In this document: positions 8,581 to 29,818 of the stretch, in pieces
Position numbering within the stretch: position 1 is the first letter of the stretch
Layout of the letters: the number at the start of each line of letters is the position of its first letter
Translations under genes and position numbers: made by a program
Notes under the pieces: model-generated
Database searches by the model: none
What the model was told of the DNA's origin: nothing
Seen by the model: only the letters and a program-made list of their open reading frames with translations
DNA from: Methylorubrum extorquens
GTDB taxonomy: Bacteria; Pseudomonadota; Alphaproteobacteria; Rhizobiales; Beijerinckiaceae
Length of the DNA stretch: 32,000 nt
Reading direction: 5' to 3'
Assembly: GCA_900234795.1 (NCBI GenBank)
Contig: LT962688.1
Span: 4,440,001-4,472,000 of the forward strand

Positions 8581-9131
8581 GCCCGACTCTGCCCCTTTCC
8601 TAAGAGAAAGGGCTGACTTAAGGGCCGCTCAGCGCTCTTTATCCGGCTTATGATCGTGGTGCGCGCCTGGAAGAGGCCATGCCTCGACGGAGCTGCGTCA
8701 TGGCAATACTCTGCCGGTGCGAGGCTAGCCTGGCGATCGACTGACGGTCAACCGGTAACGGGCGGCCACGGCGCCTCTTTCGAGCCTGATCCGCCCGCCG
8801 GCCGGCGTGAGATCCCACGGGATCGAGGCTCCTCCGCTGGCAGGACAACATTCGGTTGACCTATGGGCTCAGCAGGGTAGAAATCCTAGCGATCCGGGCC
8901 TCTCCTGTCTTGCGCACAACTTTAATAGCCTGGAACTGACGACATCTGCGGAGTCGTCATCGCTGTCGTCGGCCGGCATTCCTCGCATGTCCGGCTCATC
9001 CGCCTGCGAGCCTTGCGCCTGCGGGCCTTGCCGTTGCCCGCCCGCGCTTCAGGAGGCCGAGCATCCCCGAAGCAACGACTTCGCCCGCGCGCTCGCGTCC
9101 GCGTGCCCTGGCGCGCCTCGTCGCAGCCACC

Positions 9132-11249
9132 GTGTTGCTGCCGCTCGTTCTCCTGCTGCTCGGCCTGTGGGAGGTGCAGCGCGGCGCCGACGATCACGCC
9201 GCGTTCGAGGCCGAACAGCAACGGCTGGCCGGTCTCGTGACGCAGATGGAGGCGCGGGCGCCGCGGGATGGGCGCTTCGATCCCCGCTTTCAGTTCCGCT
9301 ACGAAGGCCGGACCTATGGCGGGCCGCTCGCCCTGGACAAGGCGCGCGAGGCCCGTGACGAAGCCGGGTTCCTCGCCAGGCTCATGGAGTGGCGCCGCGT
9401 GCTGCCGCCGGTCGTCGTCGCGGGCGGCGCGCTGGCCGCCGCGCTCTCCCTGTTCGTGCTGCTCGCCGGCGCCGTCCTGGGCCGCCTCGGCCGCGCTTCG
9501 CGCGATGCCCTGGTACGCGGCTTCTCGCTGATGCGCCGGCTGCTTCCCGCGACGCTCTCGCTCCAGATCCTGGCGGCGACGGCGAGTTTCGTCGCCGCCG
9601 TGACCTTCGAGGCGGCGGCTCTCCTCCAGGGCGGCTTCGACGGCGGCGCGCTGAAGCTGCTGGCGATCGCCGTCGTCGCGGTCGGGGCCGTGGTCTTCGT
9701 GGCCGGCAGCACGGTGCTCGGCCTGCGCCGGGCGCTCGGCGCCTTCGAGCCCGATCCGCTGCCGATCATCGGCCGGACGGTGACGCCCGAACAGGCGCCG
9801 GGCCTGTGGCGCCTCCTTGAGGGGCTTGCCGCGCGGCTCGGAGCGCTGAAGCCCGAGGCCGTGGTGGTCGGGCTCACCGAGGGCTTCTTCGTCAGCGCCG
9901 GTCCGGGGGTGCTGGAGCCCGGCGGGGCGCGGGTCACCGGCCGGATCCTCTACCTGCCGCTGCCCTATCTCGCCCTGATGCGGGGCGACGAGGTCGCCGC
10001 GATCATCGGCCACGAACTCGCCCACTATGCCGGCGGCGACACCACCTACAGCCAGCGCTTCCTGCCGATCTATGCCGGCGTCGAGCGCTCCCTCGATGCG
10101 GTCGCCGAGGGCCATCAGGGCTCGCTCGGGCTGCTCGGGCCGTCGCTGCGCCTCGGCGTCTTCGTGATGGAGCGCTTCCACCTCGCCGTGCGCCACTGGA
10201 GCCGGACGCGGGAATTCGCGGCCGACGCGGCGGGAGCGAGCGTGACCTCGATCGATGCCTCGGCCCGCGCGCTGCTGCGCACCGGCGCAGTGGGGCCGCG
10301 CATCTTCGAGACGCTCCAGGCCGCCGCCGACGCGCCCGACGCCGCACCGCCCGACCTCGTGGCCGCCGCGCTCGACCGCGCGATTGCGCAGGGGCTCGAC
10401 GACCCGGCGGCGCATTGGCAGGAGGAGCAGGCCCACCCGACCGATACCCACCCGCCGACCCGCGAGCGCGTCGCCGCCCTCGGGCGGACCATCGACGCGG
10501 ACCTCCTGGCCGCGGCCGGCGCCGTGCCGCCGCCCCACGCGCTCGGGCAGCTCGCCGCCTATTTCGCCGACCCGGCGGGGCTCAGCCGGGCGGCCACCGA
10601 CGACTTCCTCGCCGCGCTGCGGGCGCAGGACGCGGCGTACCGCGCCCATCTCGAAGCGACCGCGGCAGAGGTTGGCACCGAGGAACGGGTGCTGCGCGCG
10701 AACTACCGCTCCCGCGGGATCGCGCTCGCGGTGGGCGGCGGCCTCTTCGCCGTCATCGCGCTCGCGATCGCCGTGTTCGGCGTGCCGGGAATTTCCCCGA
10801 AGGATAACAGTGTCGTCCTCGCAATCGCGCTCGGCTTCGCCGTGCTCCTGGGCGGGGCCGGCGCCCTCATCCTGCGCCGGGGCGAGCCCGTGACGCTGAT
10901 CCTCAGCCCCGAGGGGCTGAAGGCGCCGGGGCTCGACCGGACGATCCCGTGGGATGCCATCGCCGACCTCGACATGACGTTCAACCAGACGGGCATCCTC
11001 ACGCGCCTGCTGCTGCCGCCCGAGGCGGACTGGCCGCAACGCAGCCCCGGCCGGCACGGGATCAAGCTCGACGCGAAGCGCCGCATCGTCACGCTTCCGA
11101 TCGGCCTGCCGCGCGGGATGAAGCCCCAGGATTTCGCCGAGCTGATCGGCCGCTACCAGATGGCCGCGCAGGCCCGGCGCCTCCTCGCCGAGACCGAGGC
11201 CGGCGCGCAGCGATCCTCCTCCAACTCCCAACGCGCCGAGGCTCCATGA
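9132..11249 (+). CDS. Membrane-anchored M48-family zinc metallopeptidase (HtpX/Ste24-like HExxH) with extra C-terminal TM pair and soluble domain
   Basis: 705 aa. Several hydrophobic helices, and HELAH encoded at 10011-10025 (IIGHELAHYAGGD). The C-terminal region has two TM segments followed by a PH-like stretch. The start (GTG 9132 or TTG 9135) is uncertain, with no clear SD. Confidence 0.8.
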   Translation: MLLPLVLLLLGLWEVQRGADDHAAFEAEQQRLAGLVTQMEARAPRDGRFDPRFQFRYEGRTYGGPLALDKAREARDEAGFLARLMEWRRVLPPVVVAGGALAAALSLFVLLAGAVLGRLGRASRDALVRGFSLMRRLLPATLSLQILAATASFVAAVTFEAAALLQGGFDGGALKLLAIAVVAVGAVVFVAGSTVLGLRRALGAFEPDPLPIIGRTVTPEQAPGLWRLLEGLAARLGALKPEAVVVGLTEGFFVSAGPGVLEPGGARVTGRILYLPLPYLALMRGDEVAAIIGHELAHYAGGDTTYSQRFLPIYAGVERSLDAVAEGHQGSLGLLGPSLRLGVFVMERFHLAVRHWSRTREFAADAAGASVTSIDASARALLRTGAVGPRIFETLQAAADAPDAAPPDLVAAALDRAIAQGLDDPAAHWQEEQAHPTDTHPPTRERVAALGRTIDADLLAAAGAVPPPHALGQLAAYFADPAGLSRAATDDFLAALRAQDAAYRAHLEATAAEVGTEERVLRANYRSRGIALAVGGGLFAVIALAIAVFGVPGISPKDNSVVLAIALGFAVLLGGAGALILRRGEPVTLILSPEGLKAPGLDRTIPWDAIADLDMTFNQTGILTRLLLPPEADWPQRSPGRHGIKLDAKRRIVTLPIGLPRGMKPQDFAELIGRYQMAAQARRLLAETEAGAQRSSSNSQRAEAP

Positions 11250-17459: not shown

Positions 17460-19223
17460 CTATCGGGAGGCGAGCGCCTTCGGCAGGCGGAAGGCCCAGA
17501 AGCTGCCGCCCTGGTTGATGCCAGCCGTCGTCTTGGCGACTTCGCCGCCCCAGAGCGGCACCGCGCCACCCCAGCCAGCCGCGACGCCGATCCACTGCTC
17601 GCCGTCCTGCTCCCAGGTGATCGGCGAGGCGACGACGCCGGTGCCGACCTGGAACTTCCAGACTTCCTCGCCGGTCTTGGCGTCAAACGCCTTCAGGAAG
17701 CCCTCGGGCGTTCCGGTGAAGACGAGGTTGCCCGCGGTGGTGAGCACGCCGGCCCAGAGCGGGGCCTTGTTCTTGTACTCCCACACGACCTTCTTGGTCG
17801 CCGGGTCGATGGCCTTCAGCGAGCCGATATGATCCTCGAAAGTCGGCTTGATGGTGAAGCCCGCGCCGAGATAGGCGGCGCCCTTCTTGTAGTTCACCGG
17901 CTCGTTCCAGATGTCCATGCCCCACTCGTTGGAGGGGACGTAGAACAGCCGGGTGTCGGGGCTGTAGGCGATCGGGTTCCAGTTCTTGCCGCCGAGGAAG
18001 CCCGGCGTCGCGTAGACGGACTTGCCCTTCTTGCCGTCCTCGGACTTGGCCGGGTCGCCGGGGCGGTTGGCGTCGTCGTAGATCGGGCGCCCGTTCTCGT
18101 CGATGCCCTTGGCCCAGTTGATGTTGGACACGAACGGCGTGGCCGACAGGAACGCCCCGTTGGTGCGGTCGAGGACGTAGAAGAAGCCGTTGCGGTCGGC
18201 GGTGGCGCCGGCCTTCACGGTCTTGCCGTCCTTCTGCATGTCGAAGGGCACGAACTCGTTGACCCCGTCGTAGTCCCAGCCGTCATGCGGCGTGGTCTGG
18301 AAGCCCCAGACGATCTCGCCGTTGTCGGAGTTGATCGCGAGCCGCGAGGCCGACCACTTGTTGTCGCCCGGGCGGAGCGCCGAGTTCCACGGGCCCGGGT
18401 TGCCGGTGCCGAAGTAGATCAGGTTCAGCTCGGGGTCGTAGGTGCCGCCGAGCCAGGTGGCGCCGCCGCCGAACTTCCAGGTGTCGCCGGGCCAGGACTC
18501 GTTGGCCTTGCCGGTCATGGTCGAGGGCTTGCCATTCAGCTCGCCCATATGGCCCTCGATGACGGGCCGCTTCCACACCACCTCGCCGGTCTCGGCATCG
18601 CGCGCCTCGACGCGGCCGACCACACCGAACTCGCCGCCCGACACGCCGGTGATGATCTTGCCCTTCACGATCATCGGCGCAGCGGTGTAGCTGTAGCCGG
18701 ACTTGAAGTCGTCGATATCCTTGCGCCAGACGACCTTACCGGTCTTCTGGTCGAGCGCGACGAGCTTGGCGTCGAGCGTGCCGAAATAGACCTTGTCCTT
18801 GTAGAGGGCGGCGCCGCGGTTCACCACGTCGCAGCAGGGCAGAATGCCCTCGGGAAGGCGGGCGTTGTATTCCCACTTCTTCTCGCCGGTGCGCGCATCG
18901 ACGGCGTAGAGGCGCGAATAGGAGCCGGTGACGTAGAGCACGCCGTCCTTGACCAGCGCCTGGCTCTCCTGGCCGCGCTGCTTCTCGCCGCCGAAGGAGA
19001 ACGACCAAGCCGGGACGAGGCCCTTGATGTTGTCGCGGTTGAGCGTCTTGATCGGGCTGAAGCGCTGCGCCTGCGGGCCGAGGCCGTAGGTGACGACGTC
19101 GTCCGTCGTCTTGGCGTCGTTGAGGATGTCCTGCTCGGTCACCTCGGCGATCGCTGGAAGGGCGAGGCCGACGCTGAGGGCGGCGAGCCCCACCGCCGTC
19201 AGGAAATGGTTCCGCATTCTCAT
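17460..19223 (-). CDS. exaF: PQQ-dependent (type I quinoprotein) alcohol/ethanol dehydrogenase of the ExaA/PedE/PedH/ExaF clade, with lanthanide-type active-site signature
   Basis: 587 aa. GGAGGA lies 8 nt upstream of ATG 19223, and there is a signal peptide. Near-collinear recognisable blocks with quinoprotein ethanol dehydrogenases include [20 protein letters not shown], the vicinal Cys pair [10 protein letters not shown] (18831-18836), [39 protein letters not shown] and [13 protein letters not shown]. The motif GWDYDG (18264-18281) has Asp two residues after the catalytic Asp. Confidence 0.9.
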
Positions 19224-19513: not shown

Positions 19514-20383
19514 TCAGTACCCTTGCGGCGCGGTGTAGGTGACGCCGTAGGTCGCGCAGATCGCCTTGAGGCGCCCCTCCTGCGCCAGGGCGGCGAGGGC
19601 ATCGCCGACCGCGTAGGCGAGGTCGCGGGAATCGCTGCGCACCGCGCCACCGAGATCCCAGCGCGTCCGCACCAGACCGGGGATCGGCACCTCGACCACG
19701 GGATTGTCCTCGCCCGCAGCGCCGGCCGCCGCCAGCGCCGCCTCGATTCCCGCGCGGGTGCCGGCCAGGATCGGGGTCTCGCCCGCGAGGTAGGCCTTCG
19801 CCGCCTCGTCGAAGCTGCGGAAATGCCGGATCTGGCCGCGGAAGCGGCCGCCCTCGGCGTTCATCAGCAGGCTGTCGGAGGCGCTCGTGCCCTCGACCGC
19901 AACGCTGTGGCCCTCCAGGTCGCGTACGCCCTCGAACCCCTCGATCCGGCCGCGGTGATAGGCGAAGGCCAGCCGCTGCTCGAAATAGGGATTGGTCAGG
20001 AAGATCTGCTCGTTGCGGGTGGCCAGGATGCGGTCATGGGGCACGTGCAGCATCAGGTCGGCGAGCGGCGTGCCAGCGAGGTCGCCCCGCCACAGGTTCA
20101 GCCGGAAATCGCCATCGACGTTCTCGCCCGCATCCACCACCCGCAGGTCGAGCTTCAGCTTGAGCCGCTCGGCGATGGCCTGTGCGATGTCGGCGTCGAT
20201 GCCGCGGGGCGAGGCCTTCCCCGCTTCTGAGAAGGGCCGGTTGTCGTCGTAGATCGCCACGCGCAGGACGCCGGAGGCCGTCACCTCGTCGAGCGGACGC
20301 GCGAGCGCCGGCCCGCCCGCGAACGCTCCGGCGACGGTCAGGCAGGCGAGGGCGGCGAGGCCGCGGCGGGACAGGACGCGCAT
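19514..20383 (-). CDS. MoxJ/XoxJ-like periplasmic solute-binding (family 3) protein, quinoprotein-dehydrogenase-associated
   Basis: 289 aa from ATG 20383, with a signal peptide ending PALARP. It has a family-3 SBP fold pattern (LRVAIYDDNRPFS...GIDADIAQAIAERLKLKL). It sits between a c-type cytochrome and a PQQ dehydrogenase, as in mxaFJG/xoxFGJ/ped-type clusters. Confidence 0.75.
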   Translation of the reverse strand: MRVLSRRGLAALACLTVAGAFAGGPALARPLDEVTASGVLRVAIYDDNRPFSEAGKASPRGIDADIAQAIAERLKLKLDLRVVDAGENVDGDFRLNLWRGDLAGTPLADLMLHVPHDRILATRNEQIFLTNPYFEQRLAFAYHRGRIEGFEGVRDLEGHSVAVEGTSASDSLLMNAEGGRFRGQIRHFRSFDEAAKAYLAGETPILAGTRAGIEAALAAAGAAGEDNPVVEVPIPGLVRTRWDLGGAVRSDSRDLAYAVGDALAALAQEGRLKAICATYGVTYTAPQGY

Positions 20384-20397
20384 CGGCGACAGGTGTC

Positions 20398-20820
20398 CTA
20401 CTCTTCGTGCTTGGCTTCGATGTAGGTGCGGATCGCCCACAGGGCCTCCTGCGACAGCACGCCCTCAAAAGCCGGCATCTTCATCACGCCGTTGGTGGTC
20501 GCGCCGTGGCGGACGCGCTCGACGAAGTACTCGTCGCCCTCCTTGCCGAGCGGAAGGTAGCGCAGGTCCGGCGCCAGACCGCCGGAGATCACCTGAAGGC
20601 CGTGGCAGCGGGCGCAGTTCTGGTTGAACCCGGAATCACCGATGGTGATCGCCTTCGCGTCGCCGCGATAGGGATTCTCCTCGCGCCACGTCTCGCCCAG
20701 AGGCGCGAGGCCGGCGGTATCCACGGGCTGCGGCTGCACATCGCCGTGGCCGAGGGCGGCGGAGACGGACAGGACAAGGCCGACGGCGAGGAGCCCGCCC
20801 TTGAGGGGTGCAGCCTTCAT
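20398..20820 (-). CDS. Periplasmic c-type cytochrome, probable electron acceptor of the PQQ dehydrogenase (ExaB/PedF/XoxG-like)
   Basis: 140 aa from ATG 20820. GGGAGGA is 7 nt upstream. ATG 20826 is too close to the SD. It has a signal peptide, FNQNCARCHG haem motif, APDLRY, and a candidate Met ligand in GVMKMPAF. Confidence 0.8.
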   Translation of the reverse strand: MKAAPLKGGLLAVGLVLSVSAALGHGDVQPQPVDTAGLAPLGETWREENPYRGDAKAITIGDSGFNQNCARCHGLQVISGGLAPDLRYLPLGKEGDEYFVERVRHGATTNGVMKMPAFEGVLSQEALWAIRTYIEAKHEE

Positions 20821-20981
20821 TCTCATTCCTCCCATTCTTGAGGGGAGGGTTAGCAAGCGCGCCCGGCCGAACCCATTGTGCTTTGGTAGGGGGCGGTCGG
20901 TAGCACCTTGGTCCAATACCGGGACTGCCCCGTTCGCACGTATCACTCTCCCAACAACAATCGGGAGGCGAGCAGAGCGCG

Positions 20982-22208
20982 ATGCTGGCGCGGCTCGGGA
21001 AACGGCACGGCGGCCCGCTTCGGGCAACGAAGCCGCGGCGCAGGGCGCGCGGCGTCGGGCTGCTTCTGCTCGGCCTGCTGCCCGTCGCGGCCCAGGCCGA
21101 GCCGCTGGCGATTCACTACTTGGAGCGGCGCATCGAGCGCCCGACGCCCCTCAACAACGAAGATCCGATCCCCGATGACGAGGGGCTGAAGGGCGCCGAA
21201 CTCGGGCTCAAGGATTCGAACGCCACCGGCCGGTTCGTCTCGTTGACCTTCCGCCTCGACAGCCGCGTCGTCGGGCCCGACGAGGATCTTCGCGCCGCCT
21301 TCCGTGCGCTGGGCGAGACCCCCCGCTTTGTCCTTCTGAACGTGCCGGCCGAGGACGTGCTGGCGCTCGCCGACATGCCCGAGACCAAGGGCACCGTGTT
21401 CCTCAATGTCGGCGCGCCGGATTCGCGCCTGCGCGAGGCCGATTGCCGGCCTCGACTGCTCCACGTCCTGCCCTCGCGGGCGATGCTCGCTGACGCGCTG
21501 GTGCAGTTCCTCGCCTACAAGCGCTGGACCCGCATCCTGCTGCTCTCCGGCCCGGCTCCGGCCGATGCGCTCTACGCCGAAGCGTTGAAGAAGAGCGCCA
21601 AAAAGTTCGGCGCGCGGATCGTGGCCGAATCCCGCTTCGACCCGCAGGGGGGCGACACCCGCGACACCGCTTTGCGCGAATTCGTGCTGCCCACCCGCGG
21701 CCCGGAGCACGACGTGGTCGCGGTGGCCGACGAGGCGGGGGCGTTCGGGGCGAACCTCGTCTACAACACCGCCGCGGCCCGGCCCGTGGTCGGCACGCAG
21801 GGGCTGACGCCTGCGGCCTGGGGGCGTCCGGTCGAGGCCTGGGCGGCGGTGCAGCTCCAGACCCGGTTTCGGCGGCTCGCGGGGCGGGCGATGCGCCCGA
21901 TCGACTATGCCGGCTGGATGGCCGTGCACGCGCTCGGCGAGGCGGCGGTGCAGGCGCGCAGCACCGATCCCGACACGGTGGCGGCCCTCATGCTGTCGCC
22001 ACGCTTCGAGGTCGGTGGCTTCAAGGGGCGCCCCTTGAGCTTCCGCGCCTGGGACGGGCAGTTGCGCCAGCCGGTCTTCCTGCTCTGGCCGGGCGCGGTG
22101 ACGGCGACCGCGCCGATCGAAGGCTTCCAGCACCACCGCACCGAACTCGACACGCTCGGCCCCGACGAGCCGGAGAGCGCGTGCCGGGCTTTCCGGAAAC
22201 CGGGCTGA
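20982..22208 (+). CDS. Periplasmic substrate-binding protein (Leu/Ile/Val-binding fold) of the PQQ-dependent alcohol dehydrogenase-associated ABC system type
   Basis: 408 aa with a signal peptide (LLLLGLLPVAAQA). It is transcribed divergently from the cytochrome/MoxJ/ADH genes. The family call is from remembered similarity to the PQQ-ADH-system SBP family (I believe TIGR03863) and needs HMM confirmation. Confidence 0.65.
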   Translation: MLARLGKRHGGPLRATKPRRRARGVGLLLLGLLPVAAQAEPLAIHYLERRIERPTPLNNEDPIPDDEGLKGAELGLKDSNATGRFVSLTFRLDSRVVGPDEDLRAAFRALGETPRFVLLNVPAEDVLALADMPETKGTVFLNVGAPDSRLREADCRPRLLHVLPSRAMLADALVQFLAYKRWTRILLLSGPAPADALYAEALKKSAKKFGARIVAESRFDPQGGDTRDTALREFVLPTRGPEHDVVAVADEAGAFGANLVYNTAAARPVVGTQGLTPAAWGRPVEAWAAVQLQTRFRRLAGRAMRPIDYAGWMAVHALGEAAVQARSTDPDTVAALMLSPRFEVGGFKGRPLSFRAWDGQLRQPVFLLWPGAVTATAPIEGFQHHRTELDTLGPDEPESACRAFRKPG

Positions 22209-22255
22209 TGCGCGTGCCATCCGCTGACGCCGCACACGAGAACGGAAGGTTCTGC

Positions 22256-23269
22256 ATGAGCCGCGCTTGGACCGCACGCCTCCTCCTCTGCGCCGGCCTG
22301 CTCGGCCTCGCGACGGGACCGGCGAGGGCGGAGGAAATCTTCGTCTCGAACGAGCGCGACAATACCGTCTCGGTGATCGACGGGACCTCGCTCGAGGTGG
22401 TCCGCACCTTCCCCGTCGGCCGGCGCCCGCGCGGGCTCACCTTCTCCCGCGACGGACGCACGCTCTACGTCTGCGCCAGCGATTCCGACGCGGTGCAGGT
22501 GATCGACCCCGAGACGGGGGCGCTACGCCACAACCTGCCCTCCGGCGAGGATCCGGAGCAGTTCGCGCTGGCGCCCGACGACCGCACCCTGTTCATCGCC
22601 AACGAGGAGAACGCCACCACCACGGTCGTTGACGCACAGACGCGCAAGGTGCTGGCGCAGATCGATGTCGGCATCGAGCCCGAGGGCATGGCGGTGAGCC
22701 CGGACGGCAAGACCGCCGTCACCACCTCCGAGACCACCAACATGGTCCATTGGATCGACGTGCCGACGTTGAGCGCCACTGACGCGACCCCGGTGGGCCA
22801 GCGCCCGCGCGCCGCCGCCTTCTCGGCGGACGGACGGATGCTGTGGGCGTCCTCCGAGATCGGCGGCACCGTCGCGGTGATCGACACTGCCAGCCGCAAG
22901 GTGGTCGAGACCATCGAATTCGCGGTGAAGGGCATTGCCGCCGACCGGCTCCAGCCGGTGGGCATCACCCTGACCCGGGACGGGCGCTTCGCCTTCGTCG
23001 CGCTCGGCCCCTCTGACCGCGTCGCGGTGATCGACGCCAAGACCTACAAGGTCTTGAACTACATCCTCGTCGGACGCCGGGTCTGGCAGCTTGCGATGAC
23101 GCCGGACGAGTCGCGACTGTTCACGACCAACGGCGTCTCGGGCGACGTCACCGTGATCGACGTGGCAACCCAGCGCCCGATCCGCAGCGTCAAGGTCGGC
23201 CGCTTCCCCTGGGGTGTCGCCGTGCGCCCAGCCGTCACGCCCGAGCGGGCCGCGGGCGCCGCCCCGTGA
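22256..23269 (+). CDS. YVTN-family beta-propeller repeat protein (PQQ-dependent catabolism-associated beta-propeller type)
   Basis: 337 aa. GGAAGG is 7 nt upstream of ATG 22256, and there is a signal peptide. Repeated units follow the pattern '...V.VID..t.kv...i.vG..P.G.a.spDG...yv'. Confidence 0.8.
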   Translation: MSRAWTARLLLCAGLLGLATGPARAEEIFVSNERDNTVSVIDGTSLEVVRTFPVGRRPRGLTFSRDGRTLYVCASDSDAVQVIDPETGALRHNLPSGEDPEQFALAPDDRTLFIANEENATTTVVDAQTRKVLAQIDVGIEPEGMAVSPDGKTAVTTSETTNMVHWIDVPTLSATDATPVGQRPRAAAFSADGRMLWASSEIGGTVAVIDTASRKVVETIEFAVKGIAADRLQPVGITLTRDGRFAFVALGPSDRVAVIDAKTYKVLNYILVGRRVWQLAMTPDESRLFTTNGVSGDVTVIDVATQRPIRSVKVGRFPWGVAVRPAVTPERAAGAAP

Positions 23270-25383
23270 CACGATCTGGACGCGGCGACATCGCATCGAA
23301 CGTCCTGCGGTCAGCGCTGCTCGCACTGCTTGCCCTGCTCCTGGCCGTCCCGTTGGCCAAGGCGGGCACCCTCGACCGGGCCGGGATGGAGCGCCACTTT
23401 CCCGCGCCGCTCGTCGTCGGCGAGCGCGACGCGACGCTGCCGGTCTGGCCGATCCTGAAGCAGGAGGCCGGCAGCTACGAAGTCTTCGCCTACGCCTTCG
23501 AGTCGATCGACCTCGCGCCGATCCCCGGTTTCGGCGGCACGCCCCCCGATCTCCTCGTGGCGCTCGCCCCCGACGGGACGTTCCGCGACGTGAAGGTGAT
23601 CGCCCACCACGAGCCGGTGTTTCTGGAAGGGCTCGGCTCGGAGCCGCTCTTCGCCTTCGTCGAGCAGTATGTCGGGATGTCGGCCCGTCGCCCGATCCGG
23701 GTCGGGCGTCCGAACGCCCGCGGCTCGGGTGCTGCGCCGCAGACCACGGTCGATGGCATCTCGATGGCCACCGCCTCGACGCGGGTGATCAACGAATCGA
23801 TCCTCGCCGCCTCCCTCGCGGTGGCGCGGGCAAAGCTCGGGTTCGGGGCCGCCAATCTCGGCCTGAAGGTCGAGGCGCGGCCCGATACCGGCGAAGCCCT
23901 GACGGTGGCCGAGTTGACCACGCGGGGCTGGCTCCGGCGGCTGACCGTCACCAACGCGGGGGCCGAGACCGCCTTCCGCGACGCGGGCGTGGCGGGCGCC
24001 GGTGACGGCCCGGCCGAGGCTCCGTTGGTCGACCTGACCTTCGCCGACCTCAACGTGCCGGCGATCGGCCGCGCCCTGCTCGGGGCCGAACGCTTCGCCG
24101 CCCTGACCCGCGAACTCGGGCCCGGCGACCACGCGGTGCTGGTGGTAAGCCACGGCGCCGAGAACCCGCTCGGGGACGAGTTCGTGCTCGGCTCGATCCC
24201 CGACCGGCTGACGGTGATGCAAGGTGGGCTCGCGGTGAATGCCCGCGACATGGCCATCGAGCGGCGCGGGGCCGCGCCCGGCTTGCCAGACGGGCCCTGG
24301 ACGATCCTTCGCATCACCGCAGCGGCAGGCTTCGATCCCTCCGCGCCTTGGACGCTGAGCGCGAAGATCGTGCGCGAGCGCGGCCAGATCTTTCCGGAAA
24401 AAATCGCACGCGAGTTCTCCGCCGACTACGCGCTCCCGGCCGATCTCTTCATCCGCGAGGCGGCGGAGGCGGGGCCGAGCTGGACCGATCCATGGCGCGC
24501 GCGCGGCGTCGAACTCGGCGTGATCACCCTGGCCCTTGCCGGGCTGGTGCCGGTGCTGGCGCGCCAGCGCGGCCTCGTGGCGGACCGGCGCCGCTTTCCG
24601 GCGTTCCGGCTCGCCTACCTCGCCTTCACGCTTCTCTTCATCGGCTGGTACGCCCAGGCGCAGCTCTCCATCGTGACGCTCGTCGGACTCGTGCGTGCCG
24701 CGACCGTGACGCACGACCTCACCTTCCTGCTCTACGACCCGCCCTCGCTGCTGCTCTGGGCCTTCGTCATTGCCACCCTCGTCGTCTGGGGGCGCGGCAC
24801 GTTCTGCGGCTGGCTCTGCCCGTTCGGCGCCTTGCAGGAATTTGTTGCGTGGTTGGCCAAGCCCCTGCGCATCCGGCCGGTTGCGGTATCGCCACGGCTC
24901 GATCGCGCCTTGCGGCAGGTGAAATACGTCCTGCTCGCCGGCATCCTCCTCGCCGCCGCGACCGGCTCGCCGCTCGCCGACAGCCTGTCCGAGGCCGAGC
25001 CGTTCAAGACGGCCATCACCCTGTACTTCGTGCGGGCTTGGCCGTTCGTCGCCTATGCGCTCGGCCTGCTCGTCCTCAACCTGTTCGTCTACAAGGGGTT
25101 CTGCCGCTACCTGTGTCCGCTCGGCGCGAGTCTCGCCGTCCTCGGGCGCCTGCGGCTGCTCGACTGGATTCCGCGCAGGGCCGAATGCGGCAGCCCGTGC
25201 CAGCTCTGCAAGGTGCGCTGCCGCTACGGGGCGATCCGTTCTGACGGCCGGATCGACTATCCCGAGTGCTTCCAGTGCATGGATTGCGTCACGATCATCC
25301 ACGATCCCGGTCAATGCGTACCGGAGGTGCTGGCGCGCCGACGCGGAAAGCGGATCGTGCCGCAGCCGGTCGCGGCGGAGTGA
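23266..25383 (+). CDS. NosR/NirI-family membrane protein: periplasmic FMN-binding domain + polytopic membrane domain with two CX3CP motifs + C-terminal Cys-rich ferredoxin-like domain
   Basis: 705 aa. GTG 23266 overlaps the beta-propeller stop (GTGA). It has an N-terminal signal/anchor. The FMN_bind-like motif DGISMATAST has S-M-A-T encoded at 23761-23772. Also present are FCGWLCPFGALQE, FCRYLCPLGA and CGSPCQLCKVRC...CFQCMDC. Confidence 0.8.
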   Translation: MTRSGRGDIASNVLRSALLALLALLLAVPLAKAGTLDRAGMERHFPAPLVVGERDATLPVWPILKQEAGSYEVFAYAFESIDLAPIPGFGGTPPDLLVALAPDGTFRDVKVIAHHEPVFLEGLGSEPLFAFVEQYVGMSARRPIRVGRPNARGSGAAPQTTVDGISMATASTRVINESILAASLAVARAKLGFGAANLGLKVEARPDTGEALTVAELTTRGWLRRLTVTNAGAETAFRDAGVAGAGDGPAEAPLVDLTFADLNVPAIGRALLGAERFAALTRELGPGDHAVLVVSHGAENPLGDEFVLGSIPDRLTVMQGGLAVNARDMAIERRGAAPGLPDGPWTILRITAAAGFDPSAPWTLSAKIVRERGQIFPEKIAREFSADYALPADLFIREAAEAGPSWTDPWRARGVELGVITLALAGLVPVLARQRGLVADRRRFPAFRLAYLAFTLLFIGWYAQAQLSIVTLVGLVRAATVTHDLTFLLYDPPSLLLWAFVIATLVVWGRGTFCGWLCPFGALQEFVAWLAKPLRIRPVAVSPRLDRALRQVKYVLLAGILLAAATGSPLADSLSEAEPFKTAITLYFVRAWPFVAYALGLLVLNLFVYKGFCRYLCPLGASLAVLGRLRLLDWIPRRAECGSPCQLCKVRCRYGAIRSDGRIDYPECFQCMDCVTIIHDPGQCVPEVLARRRGKRIVPQPVAAE

Positions 25384-25387
25384 GGCC

Positions 25388-26368
25388 ATGCCGGTGACCG
25401 CAGGCACCCCCCGCCGCCGCGTCCTCCTCGGCATGGCCGGGCTCGCCGCCCTGGCGGGCCTCGGCGGCCCGGCCGCTTTCCGCACGCTGGCCGCGGAGCG
25501 AGGATTGACGACCCGTACCCGCGCGGGCCTCGCCTTCGGGACCACCGTCGCGCTCACCGCCGCCGGTCCCGACCCGACCGCGCTCGACGCCGCCCTCTCC
25601 GATGGGTTTGCCGCGATGCGCGCGGTCGAAGCCGCCGCGAGCCTGTTTCGCGCCGACAGCGCCCTCTCGCGCCTCAACCGCGACGGGCGGCTCGATGCGC
25701 CACCCGCCGATCTCACGGCGATGCTGGGCTTCGCCCTCGACCTCGCGGAGCGGACCGGCGGGGCGTTCGATCCCACTGTGCAGCCGCTCTGGCCGGCCTG
25801 GGCCGGTGCGGCTGCGCGCGGAGAACAGCCGGATCCGCAGGCCCTGGAAGACGCCGTCGCCCGGATCGGCTGGCGCCGCGTTGCGCTGGCGCCGGAGCGT
25901 ATCGTCCTGGAGCCCGGCACGGCGCTGACGCTGAACGCCCTGATCCAGGGCTACGCCGCCGATCGGGTGATGGCGGCTCTGCGGGCGCGGGGCATCACGG
26001 ACGCCTTCATCGATACCGGCGAGTTCGGCGCCATGGGCGCGCATCCCGACGGCACGCCGTGGCAGCTCGGCATCGCCGACCCGCGCCGGCCGGAGGCACT
26101 GACGGCGACGATCACCCAGTTCTCGGGCTTTGCCGCGACCTCGGGGGATTACGCCATGAGCTTCACGCCCGACCGCGCCGACCATCACATCTTCGATCCC
26201 ACCACCGGACGCTCGCCGCGCGGCCTCGCTTCCGTGACCGTCACGGCCGAAACCGGCCTTCTCGCGGACGGCCTGTCCACGGCCTGCATGGTGCTCGGAC
26301 CCGAGGCGGGCGGACGGCTCGTGGCGCAGTGGCCGGGCTGCTCCGTCCGTTTCGTCGGCAAAGCCTGA
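25388..26368 (+). CDS. apbE: ApbE-family FAD:protein FMN transferase, Tat-exported
   Basis: 326 aa, starting 5 nt after the NosR-like stop. Twin-arginine signal TPRRRVLLGMAGLAALAG. ApbE blocks NALIQGYAADRV, ATSGDYAMSF, HHIFDPTTGRSP and LLADGLSTACMVLG. Confidence 0.85.
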   Translation: MPVTAGTPRRRVLLGMAGLAALAGLGGPAAFRTLAAERGLTTRTRAGLAFGTTVALTAAGPDPTALDAALSDGFAAMRAVEAAASLFRADSALSRLNRDGRLDAPPADLTAMLGFALDLAERTGGAFDPTVQPLWPAWAGAAARGEQPDPQALEDAVARIGWRRVALAPERIVLEPGTALTLNALIQGYAADRVMAALRARGITDAFIDTGEFGAMGAHPDGTPWQLGIADPRRPEALTATITQFSGFAATSGDYAMSFTPDRADHHIFDPTTGRSPRGLASVTVTAETGLLADGLSTACMVLGPEAGGRLVAQWPGCSVRFVGKA

Positions 26369-26380
26369 TCGCGAGCACCG

Positions 26381-27220
26381 ATGATGCGCCCCCTCCGATC
26401 CGGCCTCCGCAGAGACCTTGCAAGGACGCTTCGCCGTGTCGTCCGAACCGGCTTTGCGGCCACGACAGCGCTGCTGATTGGCCCGACCGCCGACGGCGCC
26501 AGGGCCGAACCGGCGGCCGCCGCCGCGGTCGCCCTCGTCGTCTCCGTCGACGTGTCGCAATCGGTCGATGACAGCCGCTTCGTTCTGCAGATGGAGGGCA
26601 TCGCCGAGGCTCTGGAGGATCCGGGCGTGATCGCGGCGATGACCGGCCATCCCGGCGGCACGCTCTTCGCCATGGTCACCTGGGCCGACCGCGCGGGCCT
26701 CGCCGTGGGCTGGCGGCGGATCGCCAGCCGTGCCGACGCGTTCGCAGCCGCGGCCCAGGTCCGTGTCACGCCCCGGCAATCGGGCGAGTTCACCTGTCTC
26801 GGCCAGATGTTCCGCACCGTGACCGCAAGCGTCCTTCCGGCAATGCCGGTTCCGGCGGAGCGGATCGTTGTCGACGTCTCGGGCGACGGCATCGACAACT
26901 GTACCGATCCCGAGAATCTCGAAACGGAGCGGACGGCGCTTCTGGCGGCCGGCGCCACGATCAACGGCCTGCCGATCCTGGTCCCGGGCGAGAACGACGT
27001 CGTCGGCGCCGGCGCCTACCGGGCTCCGGGCTACGGACTTCGGGCCACGCCGCTCCCGCAGGAGCGCACGGATCTGACGCAGTGGTACAGGTCCCACGTC
27101 GTGGCCGGTCCCGGCGCCTTCCTCTTGAAGGCGGCGGGTTACGGCGACTTCTCGCGGGCCCTGCGGCGGAAATTCGTGATCGAAGTCAGCGGCCTCGCGC
27201 CGGGTCGGCGCGACGAGTGA
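26381..27220 (+). CDS. DUF1194 (vWA-like) domain protein, exported
   Basis: 279 aa, starting 13 nt after the apbE stop. Blocks typical of DUF1194 as I remember it: VVSVDVSQSVDDSRF.LQ..G, VTWAD, IVVDVSGDGIDNC, ATINGLPIL, WYRSHVVAGPGAFL and DFSRALRRKFVIEV. Confidence 0.7.
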   Translation: MMRPLRSGLRRDLARTLRRVVRTGFAATTALLIGPTADGARAEPAAAAAVALVVSVDVSQSVDDSRFVLQMEGIAEALEDPGVIAAMTGHPGGTLFAMVTWADRAGLAVGWRRIASRADAFAAAAQVRVTPRQSGEFTCLGQMFRTVTASVLPAMPVPAERIVVDVSGDGIDNCTDPENLETERTALLAAGATINGLPILVPGENDVVGAGAYRAPGYGLRATPLPQERTDLTQWYRSHVVAGPGAFLLKAAGYGDFSRALRRKFVIEVSGLAPGRRDE

Positions 27221-27390: not shown

Positions 27391-29804
27391 TCAGGCGACG
27401 TTCCGGACAGGTTGGCGCGCCTGCCTGACGGCCTGGGGGATGAGCTCGATCAGCCCGGTGACCTCGCCGGAGGGGCGGGCCGGGCTGTAGAGGAAGCCCT
27501 GCGCGCTGTTGCAGCGCCGCAGCCGGAGCAGTTCCGCCTGCTGCTCCGTCTCGACGCCCTCGACGGTGACGTCGATCCTGAGGTCACCCGCGATGACCAT
27601 GATCGCCTTGATCACGGCCAGGCATTCCGGCCGGCTGCTCAGGTCGCGCACGAAGGCCCGGTCGATCTTGATCTTGTCGACGGGGTATTGGGTCAGGTAG
27701 CTCAGCGACGAGTAGCCCGTCCCGAAATCGTCGAGAGCGATCCGCACCCCCTTCGCACGCAGCGCCTGAAGGTTTTCCAGGACATGCGGTGTGTTGGCGA
27801 GGAAGATCGACTCCGTGATCTCGATCTCGAGTCGCTCCGGCGCGAGCCCTGTCGCGTTGAGGGCCGCCTCGACCTCCTGGAAGAAGTCGGGGAGACGGAA
27901 GTGGGTCGATGAGATGTTCACGGCAACCCGCATCGGCACAGGCCATGTCAGGGCTTCCGCACAGGCCGTCCGCAAGGCCCAGCGCCCGATCGTGATGACG
28001 AAGCCGGTGCTCTCGGCAATCGGGATCAGCTCGGCGGGCGAGACGGGGCCGAGGCCGGGCCGGGTCCAGCGCAGCAACGCCTCGCATCCCACGACCTCCC
28101 CGTCCTGTAGGCTCACGAGCGGCTGGTAGTGCAACTCCATCTCGCCGTTCGTCAGGCCGGCCCGCATGGCGCTGTCCAGCTCCCGCCAGCGCTGGACGCG
28201 GCGTTCGAGGTCGGCCTCGAAGCATTGCCAGCGGCCCCTGCCGGCCTCCTTGGCGGTGTAGAGAGAGCAAGGTCGGCCTTCCGCATCAGGTCCTGAAGCT
28301 CGGTCGCGTCCTGCGGTGCCCGTGCGATCCCGATGCTGACGCCGATCTCGGCCTGCATGCCCTCGATGAGGTAAGGCCGGTGCAGGGACGCGATGACGGC
28401 CTCGGCCAGGATTTCCGCCTCCGCGCTCTCCCGGCCGCGGTGCAGGATCGCGAACTCGTCGCCGCCGAGGCGGAACACTTGCGCGTTCGCATCGACGCTG
28501 GCGCACAGGCGGTCGGCGACCTGGCGCAGGAGGTCGTCACCCGCACAATGGCCGGCCGTGTCGTTGACCTTCTTGAAGCCGTCGAGGTCGAGATACAGCA
28601 GGTGGACGCGTGGGCCTCCGCTCATGGAGGCCGTGCAGGCCTCCCCCGCCACATCGTGGAAAACGGCCCGGTTCGACAGTCCCGTCAGAGGATCGCGCGT
28701 GGCGAGATAGGCGATGTGGGCGTCCGCCTCCCGGCGCTGCGTCACGTCGGAGCCGACGCCGCGGAACCCCGCTAAGGTCCCGCGCTGATCCGCGAAGGGC
28801 TTGCCGCTCAACGCGAGCCACCGCAGGCCGGTCGGGGTCTCGACCGCGACGAGGCACTCGTGGAAGGCCTTGCCCTGCCGAAGATGGCTGAGCAGGTCGG
28901 TGGTCCGATCCTCGTCCCGGTCCTCCCCGGCACGGAGCAGATCCCGGAACGAGCCGCGCTGAAGCCGCTCGATCGGGCAGCCCAGAGCGTCGGCCATCCG
29001 CGGCGACACGTGCTGGAAACGGCCGGTTTCGTTCGTCTCCCAGAGCCAGTCGCTCGTGTTCTCCTCGAACTCGTTGAGGAGAAGGCCGATGGTCTCGCTC
29101 TGATCCTCGACGCGGACGCGGTCGAGGATGCGCTGGCGCGAGAGGCGGCTCATCCGGTGGACACTCACCCCGACGAAGGTCGCGTAGACGAGGAGCAGGA
29201 CGGCGATGCTCAGGGCAATCGGCTCGCCGCTGCGGGCCAGCCCGATGAAGCTGCCGACGATCACCGGGATCGCGAAGAGGTAGGAGACCGACAGGAGCGG
29301 CCCGACCACGTAGGCGTCCGAGATCAGGCCGGCGGCGATACTGACGACGAGCAGCCGCTCGTCGCTGCTGGCTGAGCAGAAGAGCACGACCGGCATGGTG
29401 GCCCAGGCCAGACCCAGCGCGAGAGCGAACCCGGCGGAGATCCGGTAGCCGCGCCCGACGCCGACCTCGGTGACGGCGTCGCCGTAGAGGCGCTGGTAGA
29501 GCCAGGTCGTGTAGATGGTCGCCGCGATCACCACGGTGACGACGGCGAGCAGACCAAGCAGATAGGCACGCGGCGCCGAATCCCAGAAGAAGTAGGCGAC
29601 CGCGACCGCGATGATCAGGTGGGTGACAGCGGAGTAGTTGGCGAGCTTCAAGGTCTCGTCGAGCAATCCGGCGCGAACCTGCAGGCTGTAGCGCGCCGGC
29701 AGCCCGTCGAGCGTGTCGATGCGCCGAAGCCGATTGATCAAGGCACTGAAGCTCTGCGTCGATGTCGTGGTGTCGTCCGATGTCGTCGTGCCGTCGCGGC
29801 GCAT
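27391..29804 (-). pseudogene. Membrane sensor diguanylate cyclase/phosphodiesterase (multi-TM N-terminus, PAS, GGDEF, EAL); one frameshift as sequenced
   Basis: ATG 29804, with about 6 hydrophobic helices. A PAS-like segment (DWLWETNETGRFQHVSPRMADALG) precedes GGDEF (DPLTGLSNR...FRLGGDEFAIL). The frame breaks at LMRKADLAL|YTAKEAGRGRW, in an AG/CT repeat at 28260-28267. The EAL domain continues in another frame (GCEALLRW, EITES, DDFGTGYSSLSYL, EGVET), with stop at 27391. Confidence 0.8.
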
Positions 29805-29818
29805 CTCGGGGGACGGGA

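What the first reader, a model, noticed from the sequence alone, without database searches (positions are those of the whole stretch)
20982..27220. PQQ-ADH/lanthanide-associated periplasmic pair runs into a NosR-like/ApbE/DUF1194 module instead of the usual ABC ATPase and permease
- **Operon structure:** five same-strand genes are packed tightly. They are SBP (20982-22208), YVTN beta-propeller (22256-23269), NosR-like (starts at GTG 23266, GTGA overlap), ApbE (5-nt gap) and DUF1194 (13-nt gap).
- **What is normally there:** in ped-type clusters of Pseudomonas putida (PedA1A2BC) and the lut cluster of Methylorubrum extorquens, homologous periplasmic components travel with an ABC ATPase and permease. 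Those systems have been linked to lanthanide acquisition for Ln-dependent dehydrogenases.
- **What is here:** no ATPase or permease is present anywhere in this window. Their position is taken by a flavinylated Fe-S membrane electron-transfer protein and its maturase.
- **Interpretation:** I know of no described role for a NosR/NirI-type protein in a quinoprotein alcohol dehydrogenase system. One speculative idea is redox maintenance of a periplasmic cofactor or of the vicinal Cys-Cys disulfide of the dehydrogenase. Another is an alternative electron route between quinone pool and periplasm.
Basis: partly seen in the sequence, partly recalled or inferred. Interest (0 to 1): 0.72.

Follow-up and report, generated by a model that had tools for sequence, protein, structure and literature searches.

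The report
NosR-like redox module in exaF cluster
Beside the lanthanide-dependent alcohol dehydrogenase gene of Methylorubrum extorquens sits a gene pair for a flavin/iron-sulfur membrane protein and its flavin-attaching enzyme; the pairing is real and widespread, was catalogued by bioinformatics in 2021, has never been tested experimentally, and accompanies rather than replaces the usual transporter genes.

Summary
The five-gene operon is as described. HMMs place the genes in TIGR03863 (binding protein), TIGR03866 (beta-propeller), NosR-like (FMN_bind + Fer4_5, below the true-NosR cutoff), ApbE and DUF1194. They lie divergent from exaGJF, i.e. PedF-type cytochrome c, a PedG/MoxJ-like protein and the lanthanide-type ADH ExaF (M. 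extorquens META1p1132-1139).

The "instead of the ABC parts" reading does not generalise. I examined 80 species-level relatives of the NosR-like gene:
- 47 lie in ped/exa-type clusters.
- 54 have ApbE directly downstream.
- None has nosZ or nirS nearby.
- Nine carry NosR-like/ApbE together with PedB/PedC-type ATPase and permease, often directly after the permease gene.

So the pair is a conserved add-on to these clusters. It sits next to lanthanide-signature ADHs in 40 of 43 cases and coexists with the PedF cytochrome. DUF1194 is a lineage-specific periplasmic vWA/MIDAS extra.

Méheust et al. 2021 already reported NapH-like/ApbE clusters with exaA in 172 genomes. No experimental work was found.

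In AM1 RNA-seq the binding protein and propeller genes are co-induced with exaF. NosR-like/ApbE/DUF1194 are about 4-fold lower and not significantly induced.

My best guess (about 0.4) is a low-flux, outward electron-donor module for maintenance or cofactor handling, by analogy with NosR and NosZ. Interest is moderate.

The parts
17460..19223 (-). exaF: lanthanide-type PQQ ethanol/methanol dehydrogenase (META1p1139 orthologue)
   Evidence: TIGR03075 scores 809.9 bits against a cutoff of 480. It carries the W-D317-Y-D319 lanthanide signature and the vicinal Cys130-Cys131 pair. Sources name it a lanthanide-containing QEDH.
19514..20383 (-). exaJ: PedG/MoxJ-like periplasmic binding protein (META1p1138)
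   Evidence: It gives weak SBP_bac_3 / TIGR03871 hits. The gene call matches L001. PMC12997753 names META1p1138 as PedG-like.
20398..20820 (-). exaG: cytochrome c-550, PedF type (META1p1137)
   Evidence: TIGR04494 scores 200.8 bits against a cutoff of 122. It has a CARCH haem motif and a signal peptide.
20821..20981 (.). 161-bp divergent intergenic region between exaG and the SBP gene (presumed shared regulatory region)
   Evidence: Read directly from the sequence. The consensus promoter scan found nothing, which is uninformative at about 70% G+C.
20982..22208 (+). PedA1-type periplasmic substrate-binding protein of the PQQ-ADH system (META1p1136)
   Evidence: TIGR03863 scores 477.8 bits against a cutoff of 413.6, with a Peripla_BP_6 hit. 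The N-terminal signal is rich in arginine. It is co-induced with exaF in AM1 (log2FC 2.3, q = 2e-4).
22256..23269 (+). PedA2/YncE-type seven-bladed YVTN beta-propeller, periplasmic (META1p1135)
   Evidence: TIGR03866 scores 521.1 bits against a cutoff of 287.3. PDB relatives include YncE 3vgz/7seu. It has a Sec signal. It is co-induced with exaF (log2FC 2.9, q = 2.5e-5).
23266..25383 (+). NosR/NapH-like flavinylated Fe-S membrane protein (META1p1134)
   Evidence: Pfam hits are Fer4_5, FMN_bind and PF27538. NF046105 scores 505 bits against a cutoff of 1000. Sequence features: TM1 at 13-31; the D163-G-I-S-M-A-T169 flavinylation motif; CX3CP at 514 and 613; Cys clusters at 641-652 and 668-684. 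The GTGA overlap with the propeller stop is conserved in L008 and L010.
25388..26368 (+). ApbE/NosX-type FAD:protein FMN transferase with a Tat-like signal (META1p1133)
   Evidence: PF02424 scores 212.5 bits. The N-terminus contains RRRVLLG. An ApbE gene lies directly downstream of the NosR-like gene in 54 of 80 related loci.
26381..27220 (+). DUF1194: periplasmic vWA-fold protein with a MIDAS motif (META1p1132); a lineage-specific addition
   Evidence: PF06707 scores 153.3 bits. The DxSxS motif is at D57/S59/S61. The AF2 model has pLDDT 80.7, and its Foldseek hits are vWA/MIDAS domains with E down to 1e-10. It is present in only 4 of the 80 genome loci.

Best explanation
**What it is (well supported)**
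- The NosR-like gene and ApbE form a two-gene redox cassette.
- The cassette is a recurrent accessory of lanthanide-type PQQ alcohol dehydrogenase (exa/ped) clusters in Alpha-, Beta- and Gammaproteobacteria.
- In the Methylobacteriaceae lineage it is fused into one operon behind the PedA1-like binding protein and the PedA2-like beta-propeller. That operon lacks the PedB/PedC ATPase and permease. In Methylorubrum and a few relatives a periplasmic vWA/MIDAS protein (DUF1194) is appended.
- It is not a substitute for the ABC parts. Elsewhere the cassette sits alongside them.

**How it works (shown from sequence, not biochemically)**
- ApbE is exported by a Tat-like signal. It would attach FMN to Thr169 of the periplasmic FMN_bind domain of the NosR-like protein.
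- That protein has a NapH-type membrane core with two CX3CP motifs and two cytoplasmic 4-Cys Fe-S sites. It therefore connects the quinone pool or cytoplasm with the periplasm.

**Inferred mechanism (my commitment, about 0.4)**
- Like NosR acting on NosZ, it delivers a small flux of electrons outward.
- This would keep a component of the lanthanide-ADH system in a working state, or support its maturation or cofactor and metal handling.
- Candidate acceptors are PQQ or the Cys-Cys disulfide of ExaF, the propeller protein, or an imported cofactor or metal chelate.
- It is not the main respiratory outlet of the enzyme.
For: **Family placement and motifs**
- HMM placements are; sequence motifs are.

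**Conservation across 80 related loci**
- 55 loci hold at least one PQQ-ADH-system gene within 10 kb, and 47 hold at least two.
- ApbE is directly downstream in 54.
- The loci come from three proteobacterial classes, with varying gene order.
- No nosZ or nirS signature was found.

**Coexistence with the ABC parts**
- Nine loci also carry TIGR03864/TIGR03861-type ATPase and permease.

**Link to lanthanide-type enzymes**
- 40 of 43 neighbouring ADHs carry the WD[FY]D lanthanide signature.

**Evidence against a bulk electron route**
- PedF cytochrome is present in 15 of 18 full-flank loci that carry an ADH.
- In AM1 RNA-seq the NosR-like read density is about 840 reads/kb. The cytochrome is at about 24,700 and exaF at about 83,000.
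- NosR-like is not significantly induced when exaGJF rise 16- to 50-fold.

**Family precedent (established knowledge)**
- NosR/NosX sustain NosZ activity.
- NapH and PceC pass electrons outward.
Against: - There is no experimental data on any member of this clade.
- The direction of electron flow and the acceptor are inferred only from relatives.
- The only published proposal (PMC8238504) has the opposite direction, from ADH to the electron transport chain.
- In Oxalobacteraceae the cassette follows ADH and a porin gene, and no cytochrome c was seen within the partial contigs. That fits an acceptor role there.
- The RNA-seq comparison is between mutant strains. The reference samples show high replicate scatter and background-like counts.
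- The lanthanide-signature enrichment has no base-rate control.
Confidence: 0.4

Rival explanations
1. Electron-acceptor route (Méheust et al. model). The periplasmic FMN domain takes electrons from the reduced PQQ enzyme, or from its cytochrome, and feeds them through the Fe-S membrane protein into the quinone pool. This would run in parallel with, or in place of, cytochrome c-550.
For: - The model is published for 172 genomes with NapH-like/ApbE plus exaA.
- In nine Oxalobacteraceae loci the order is ADH > porin > NosR-like > ApbE on one strand, with no PedF gene in the available contig.
- Entry at quinone level would be energetically advantageous (inference).
Against: - PedF cytochrome coexists with the cassette in 33 of 47 cluster loci and in 15 of 18 full-flank loci.
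- In AM1 the cytochrome is induced about 45-fold with exaF, whereas NosR-like is not. NosR-like read density is about 3% of the cytochrome's.
- Characterised relatives (NosR, NapH, PceC) move electrons outward (established knowledge).
Confidence: 0.25
2. Transport-linked replacement. In this lineage the NosR-like protein takes over from the ABC ATPase and permease, so that the binding protein and propeller hand their ligand to a redox-driven rather than ATP-driven membrane partner.
For: - There is a direct SBP > propeller > NosR-like > ApbE order with a 4-nt overlap and no PedB/PedC in the window.
- Twelve loci have SBP and propeller but no ABC parts within 10 kb.
Against: - Nine loci have both the cassette and PedB/PedC.
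- Eleven Oxalobacteraceae loci have the cassette and the propeller without any SBP or ABC parts.
- NosR/NapH-type proteins have no known transport function.
- M. extorquens has lutE/lutF elsewhere (PMC7391723).
Confidence: 0.07
3. Redox sensor or regulator. As in the historical annotation of NosR, the protein senses redox state and is needed for expression of the exa cluster rather than for catalysis.
For: - Sources annotate it as "regulatory protein NosR".
- Regulators (LuxR-type, sigma-54 activators) are frequent neighbours.
Against: - It has no DNA-binding or signalling domain.
- An obligate ApbE partner in 54 of 80 loci points to a working flavin cofactor.
Confidence: 0.07
4. Functionally unrelated neighbour that merely hitch-hikes next to the ADH cluster.
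For: - Some relatives (Neptuniibacter, Marinobacter, S. stutzeri) are orphans with unrelated neighbours.
- In AM1 the gene is not significantly co-induced with exaF.
Against: - 47 of 80 loci across three proteobacterial classes keep it inside ped/exa clusters despite shuffled gene order.
Confidence: 0.05

Closest known systems
NapH-like flavinylation-associated clusters with ExaA (Méheust et al. 2021, eLife, PMC8238504)
   Same: - A PF12801 membrane Fe-S protein with an N-terminal extracytosolic FMN-binding domain.
- An ApbE gene in the cluster.
- A PQQ alcohol dehydrogenase gene nearby.
- This locus fits their operational definition.
   Different: - Their model has the protein standing in for cytochrome c. 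Here, and in most related loci, the PedF cytochrome is present.
- They did not describe the links to PedA1/PedA2-type proteins, TonB receptors, lanthanide-type enzymes or DUF1194.
NosR/NosX (ApbE) of the nitrous oxide reductase system
   Same: - The domain order matches: signal/TM, FMN_bind, NosR periplasmic domain, NapH-like membrane core with two CX3CP motifs, and two C-terminal 4-Cys sites.
- It has a dedicated ApbE partner.
- The beta-propeller gene just upstream resembles the propeller of NosZ-type proteins only weakly.
   Different: - It scores 505 bits against a cutoff of 1000 for the NosR equivalog.
- No nosZ, nosDFY or nirS lies near it or near any of 80 relatives.
- The flavinylation motif has Met or Lys where Gly is usual.
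PedA1A2BC (P. putida) and the Lut ABC system (M. extorquens) for lanthanide uptake
   Same: - The SBP and propeller are full-score members of the PedA1 and PedA2 families.
- Related loci carry PedB/PedC-type partners.
   Different: - This operon has no ATPase or permease.
- Whether LutA and LutB belong to the same HMM families could not be checked here.
vWA/MIDAS accessory proteins of methanol dehydrogenase maturation (MxaC/MxaL) — recalled from knowledge, not tested
   Same: - DUF1194 is a vWA fold with a DxSxS MIDAS motif encoded beside a PQQ dehydrogenase cluster.
   Different: - DUF1194 appears periplasmic and single-domain.
- No MoxR-type ATPase is nearby.
- No sequence relationship to MxaC or MxaL was tested.

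Membership tests
TIGR03863 PQQ-ADH-system substrate-binding protein (PedA1 type) | HMM score above the curated cutoff | tested here: met
   477.8 bits against a cutoff of 413.6.
TIGR03866 PQQ-catabolism-associated beta-propeller (PedA2 type) | HMM score above the curated cutoff | tested here: met
   521.1 bits against a cutoff of 287.3.
PedA1A2BC-type ABC transporter | TIGR03864 ATPase and TIGR03861 ABC-2 permease encoded with the SBP and propeller | tested here: not met
   Neither family is in the window. Both are present in nine related loci.
NosR proper (NF046105 equivalog) | HMM score of at least 1000 bits | tested here: not met
   505.4 bits. Relatives L037 and L075 score 563 and 447 bits.
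NosR proper | Encoded with nosZ (or nirS for NirI) | tested here: not met
   No CuA-motif ORF of at least 450 aa, and no cd1-like ORF, in the 80 related genome loci, which include the CP021054 copy of this region (L001). HMM scans of the window's genes gave no such match.
NosR/NapH-like architecture | Periplasmic FMN_bind domain, two CX3CP motifs and two 4-Cys Fe-S sites | tested here: met
   PF04205 and PF12801 hits. Motifs at 514, 613, 641-652 and 668-684 are invariant in alignment A1; the Cys residues of these motifs are also invariant in alignment A3.
ApbE-flavinylated protein | Dxx[ST]xA[ST] flavinylation motif with a conserved acceptor Thr or Ser | tested here: met
   D163-G-I-S-M-A-T169. 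The motif was found in 71 of 80 relatives, with Met or Lys in place of the usual Gly. Actual flavinylation cannot be tested here.
NapH-like flavinylation cluster with ExaA (Méheust 2021 definition) | PF12801 membrane protein, ApbE and an ExaA-type dehydrogenase in one neighbourhood | tested here: met
   The definition is quoted. The KEGG K00114 assignment itself was not run.
Lanthanide-dependent PQQ ADH (ExaF/PedH type) | Extra Asp two residues after the catalytic Asp (D-x-D) | tested here: met
   W-D317-Y-D319.
DUF1194 / vWA | PF06707 match, vWA fold and MIDAS DxSxS motif | tested here: met
   153.3 bits, D57/S59/S61, Foldseek hits to vWA domains. Metal binding was not tested.

The most novel reading that the evidence does not exclude
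The operon (binding protein, propeller, NosR-like, ApbE and, in this lineage, DUF1194) is a periplasmic, redox-dependent loading or repair system for the PQQ-lanthanide cofactor. The flavinylated NosR-like protein would reduce PQQ, or a chelate such as a Ce(IV) or Fe(III) complex. That substrate would be delivered by PqqU-like receptors and the PedA1/PedA2-type proteins. Electron input would then be a required step in making or maintaining lanthanide-dependent quinoproteins.
Probability: 0.15. Interest if true: 0.8.

Novelty: new member of a known kind. Interest (0 to 1): 0.45.

Why it matters
- **A possible new step in lanthanide enzyme biology.** If the cassette is needed for ExaF/PedH-type enzymes, it would add an unrecognised redox step. 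That step could affect maturation, maintenance or an extra electron route.
- **Easy to test.** The genes META1p1132-1136 sit in a genetically tractable model organism.
- **Practical relevance.** It would bear on heterologous expression of lanthanide-dependent dehydrogenases and on rare-earth bio-recovery strains.
- **If it has no exa-related phenotype.** The locus is then just another uncharacterised NapH-like flavinylated system.

Tried and rejected
- **Promoter and terminator scan of 17-28 kb.** No promoter-like sites were found, and terminator-like sites were at shuffle level. This is uninformative at about 70% G+C.
- **PDB sequence search.** Nothing was found for the NosR-like protein or the SBP.
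- **AF2 model of the NosR-like protein.** It was only moderate (pLDDT 70.8, pTM 0.48, Fe-S tail disordered). I did not use it for fold search.
- **Supplement of Méheust et al.** It could not be mined for this locus because no matching text is held.
- **Apparent co-variation of the five genes across the three dMDH-3 RNA-seq replicates.** I rejected this as evidence of co-transcription. Neighbouring genes on both strands show the same uniform read density, which looks like background.
- **Remnant nos/nir cluster.** Rejected.
- **DUF1194 as an obligatory third member.** Rejected. It is present in 4 of 80 genome loci, and homologues at 65-70% identity in other Methylobacterium species sit next to pentose-phosphate genes.
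- **Homology of LutA/LutB to TIGR03863/TIGR03866.** This could not be verified, because they are annotated only as exported proteins.
- **Literature searches.** Searches for the locus tags META1p1132-1136, NosR plus lanthanide, NosR plus extorquens, and flavinylation plus PQQ found no experimental study.

Full report

The window is about 70% G+C. Over the 18.7 kb covered by locus L001 it is 99.8% identical to Methylorubrum chromosome CP021054. Several of its proteins are identical to M. extorquens entries SOR31318-31325.

- binding protein, 20982-22208
- beta-propeller, 22256-23269
- NosR-like, 23266-25383
- ApbE, 25388-26368
- DUF1194, 26381-27220

The spacings are 47 nt, a 4-nt GTGA overlap, 4 nt and 12 nt.

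- TIGR03863 scores 477.8 bits (cutoff 413.6).
- TIGR03866 scores 521.1 bits (cutoff 287.3).
- The third protein hits Fer4_5 and FMN_bind.
- ApbE scores 212.5 bits.
- DUF1194 scores 153.3 bits.

Divergently transcribed from this operon are three genes:
- a PedF-type cytochrome c-550 (TIGR04494, 200.8 bits against a cutoff of 122)
- a PedG/MoxJ-like protein
- a PQQ dehydrogenase (TIGR03075, 809.9 bits)

The dehydrogenase has the lanthanide-coordinating D317-x-D319 motif and the vicinal Cys pair. This is the exaGJF locus. An AM1 RNA-seq table lists the genes as follows:

| Locus tag | Annotation in the table |
|---|---|
| META1p1139 | exa |
| META1p1138 | periplasmic binding protein |
| META1p1137 | cytochrome c550 |
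| META1p1136 | exported protein |
| META1p1135 | YVTN propeller |
| META1p1134 | "NosR" |
| META1p1133 | "nosX" |
| META1p1132 | mis-annotated IPP transferase (this is the DUF1194 gene) |

One statement needs correcting. The window does contain ABC permease/ATPase genes, because cydD and cydC lie at its 5' end. They are not PedB/PedC types and are 19 kb away.

**2. Anatomy of the NosR-like protein and its neighbours**

The 705-residue protein has these features:
- An N-terminal signal or TM helix at residues 13-31.
- A periplasmic region of about 380 residues. It contains the FMN_bind domain with D163-G-I-S-M-A-T169, which fits the Dxx[ST]xA[ST] flavinylation pattern.
- A NapH-like membrane core with two CX3CP motifs at C514 and C613.
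- A C-terminal tail with two 4-Cys sites, CX3CX2CX3C at 641-652 and CX2CX2CX9CP at 668-686.
- All of these Cys residues, and the acceptor position, are invariant or nearly so in 39 homologues.

It scores only 505 bits on NCBI's NosR equivalog model, whose cutoff is 1000. It is therefore NosR-like, not NosR.

The neighbouring proteins look periplasmic:
- ApbE starts with a twin-arginine-like signal, RRRVLLG.
- The binding protein and the propeller both have export signals.
- DUF1194 has a signal-like N-terminus and a DxSxS MIDAS motif. Its AF2 model (pLDDT 80.7) matches vWA/MIDAS domains in the PDB with E down to 1e-10.

**3. Comparative genomics**

I scanned one genome per GTDB species with an alignment of NosR-like homologues. 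This returned 80 loci at 84-40% identity. I called ORFs, clustered them and labelled the clusters with Pfam and NCBIfam.

Main results:
- 55 of 80 loci hold at least one PQQ-ADH-system gene within 10 kb, and 47 of 80 hold at least two.
- ApbE lies directly downstream in 54 of 80.
- The taxa span Methylobacteriaceae, Methylopila, Ancylobacter, Beijerinckiaceae, Rhodobacteraceae, many Burkholderiales and some Gammaproteobacteria. Gene order differs between them.
- No locus has an ORF with a NosZ CuA motif or a cd1-type nitrite reductase.
- The few context-free members (Neptuniibacter, Marinobacter, S. stutzeri) have unrelated neighbours.

That criterion is therefore not met.

**4. "Instead of the ABC parts"?**

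Nine loci contain the cassette together with the binding protein, the propeller and an ATPase and permease. Examples are L037 and L078, with the order ATPase > propeller > SBP > permease > NosR-like > ApbE. L074, L075 and L082 in the Rhodobacteraceae are similar.

The ATPase and permease score above the TIGR03864 and TIGR03861 cutoffs, at 334.9 against 302 and 354 against 241.

Other arrangements also occur:
- Eleven Oxalobacteraceae loci have the propeller, a PqqU-like TonB receptor, the ADH and the cassette, but no binding protein or ABC genes.
- Twelve loci, including this one, have the binding protein and propeller without ABC genes.

The cassette is therefore an independent add-on. Its presence does not depend on the absence of PedB/PedC.

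The direct SBP > propeller > NosR-like > ApbE order is a lineage feature of Methylobacteriaceae and neighbouring families. The 4-nt overlap recurs in L008 and L010. M. extorquens has a complete Lut ABC system elsewhere (PMC7391723). I could not verify that LutA and LutB belong to the same HMM families.

**5. What travels with the cassette**

- 40 of the 43 ADH ORFs next to it have the WD[FY]D lanthanide signature. One is of the Ca type (DFS), and two belong to a distant PQQ family. I have no base rate for this, so the enrichment is suggestive only.
- The PedF cytochrome is present in 33 of 47 cluster loci, and in 15 of the 18 loci with full 10-kb flanks and an ADH.
- DUF1194 follows ApbE only in L001, L007 and L009, and lies on the opposite strand in L013.

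I also scanned metagenome contigs with DUF1194. Of 41 assessable contigs, 4 have ApbE directly upstream, 4 have a lanthanide-type ADH directly upstream, and 33 have neither. One further contig shows ADH followed by DUF1194. DUF1194 thus has a recurrent but minority link to these dehydrogenases, and that link is independent of the NosR-like gene.

**6. Expression evidence**

Table S1 of PMC8969499 compares the evolved strain evo-HLn with its parent dMDH-3, both grown on methanol with La.

| Gene | log2 fold change | Significance |
|---|---|---|
| exaF | +5.7 | significant |
| exaG | +5.5 | significant |
| exaJ | +4.0 | significant |
| SBP gene | +2.3 | q = 2e-4 |
| propeller gene | +2.9 | q = 2.5e-5 |
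| NosR-like | +1.0 | not significant |
| ApbE | +1.05 | not significant |
| DUF1194 | +0.56 | not significant |

Read densities in evo-HLn, which I calculated as mean counts divided by gene length:

| Gene | Reads per kb (approx.) |
|---|---|
| SBP | 2,500 |
| Propeller | 3,550 |
| NosR-like | 840 |
| ApbE | 875 |
| DUF1194 | 650 |
| Cytochrome (exaG) | 24,700 |
| exaF | 83,000 |

There is thus a roughly 4-fold step-down at the propeller/NosR-like junction. The three distal genes have similar levels, and their abundance is far below that of the enzyme and its cytochrome.

The parent-strain counts are background-like and noisy. This is weak evidence, and it neither proves nor excludes a single transcript.

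**7. Literature**

Méheust et al. 2021 (PMC8238504) surveyed flavinylation clusters. They reported NapH-like systems with an "ethanol oxidase" (ExaA, K00114) in 172 genomes. [quoted passage not shown] The association is therefore already described, although only computationally.

The paper's main text does not mention the propeller, and the binding-protein Pfam name gave no hit either. TonB receptors, lanthanide-type enzymes and DUF1194 were not among my search terms. Full-text searches for the AM1 locus tags and for related term pairs found no experimental work. DUF1194 is described elsewhere only as a secreted vWA-like protein of unknown function (PMC12282271).

**8. Most likely mechanism**

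Shown from sequence: this is an exported ApbE plus a membrane Fe-S protein whose periplasmic FMN domain carries the acceptor threonine.

Inferred: the direction of electron flow and the partner. I favour an outward, low-flux donor role (about 0.4), for three reasons:
- Characterised relatives (NosR with NosX, NapH, PceC) move electrons outward.
- The dedicated cytochrome is retained almost everywhere.
- The cassette is expressed at about 1-3% of the level of the enzyme and its cytochrome, and it is not co-induced with them.

The published inward route remains a serious rival (about 0.25), especially for Oxalobacteraceae. Replacement of the ABC energiser, a regulatory role and mere hitch-hiking are each unlikely.

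**9. Novelty and interest**

This locus is a new, lineage-specific member of a kind already catalogued in 2021. The points that appear new are:
- coexistence with PedB/PedC and with the cytochrome
- the near-exclusive association with D-x-D enzymes
- the propeller and PqqU-like receptor neighbourhood
- the separate link between DUF1194 and the ADH

The function is unknown and directly testable in a model organism. Interest is moderate (0.45).

Noticed in passing
window 28260-28261, 29808, 30632: The window has three small insertions relative to CP021054 (L001). A +AG at 28260-28261 splits the PAS-GGDEF-EAL gene (intact at 811 aa in L001) between its GGDEF and EAL domains. A +G at 29808 and a +G at 30632 disrupt the P450 gene (intact at 471 aa in L001). 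These are either real pseudogenes or assembly indel errors.
   Followed up: partly
window 233-2342: The 3' end of cydD and cydC (a thiol-reductant ABC exporter made of fused permease/ATPases) lie here. cydC matches switch reading frame between about 1636 and 1695, which suggests another indel.
   Followed up: partly
L019, L022, L028, L030, L033, L038, L044, L052 (about 1-4.5 kb of each locus): In Oxalobacteraceae ped-type clusters, a PqqU-like TonB receptor lies divergent from the PedA2/YncE-type propeller gene. The receptor scores 797 bits against a cutoff of 1200. This is the same arrangement as yncD(pqqU)/yncE in E. coli, and it hints that the propeller family works with PQQ or chelate import independently of the ABC parts.
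   Followed up: partly
L112, L124, L126, L132 and L091: DUF1194 genes lie immediately downstream of lanthanide-signature ExaF-like dehydrogenase genes in unrelated metagenome contigs, with no NosR-like or ApbE gene between them.
   Followed up: partly
L070, L072, L076, L081, L084, L085 (downstream of ApbE, opposite strand): In Rhodobacteraceae and related loci the cassette is flanked by a CoxG / 2Fe-2S / molybdopterin-binding / FAD-binding set, i.e. a xanthine-dehydrogenase-family enzyme. It may be the aldehyde-oxidising step of the cluster.
   Followed up: no
NosR-like residues 163-169 (window about 23752-23772) and relatives: The flavinylation motif in this clade almost always has Lys or Met (for example DGV[STA]KAT, DGISMAT) where the canonical motif has Gly. 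Only 2 of the 71 relatives with a detected motif (80 were scanned) keep Gly.
   Followed up: no
L019-L052 group, between ADH and NosR-like (for example L042 8778-9929): A conserved 383-aa protein with a signal peptide and a C-terminal ...IIFF has no Pfam or NCBIfam hit. It is probably an outer-membrane porin, and it sits between the ADH gene and the cassette in nine Oxalobacteraceae loci.
   Followed up: partly
window 8940-11249 (+) and about 11.7-15 kb: A 770-codon high-GC3 reading frame gives only faint HtpX/M48-like hits. Several ORFs between 12 and 15 kb have no family match at all.
   Followed up: no
AM1 RNA-seq Table S1 of PMC8969499: The three dMDH-3 replicates show nearly uniform read density across weakly expressed genes on both strands in this region, at about 80, 520 and 10-50 reads/kb. 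This pattern is consistent with background such as DNA carry-over, so fold changes for low-expression genes in that comparison should be read with care.
   Followed up: partly
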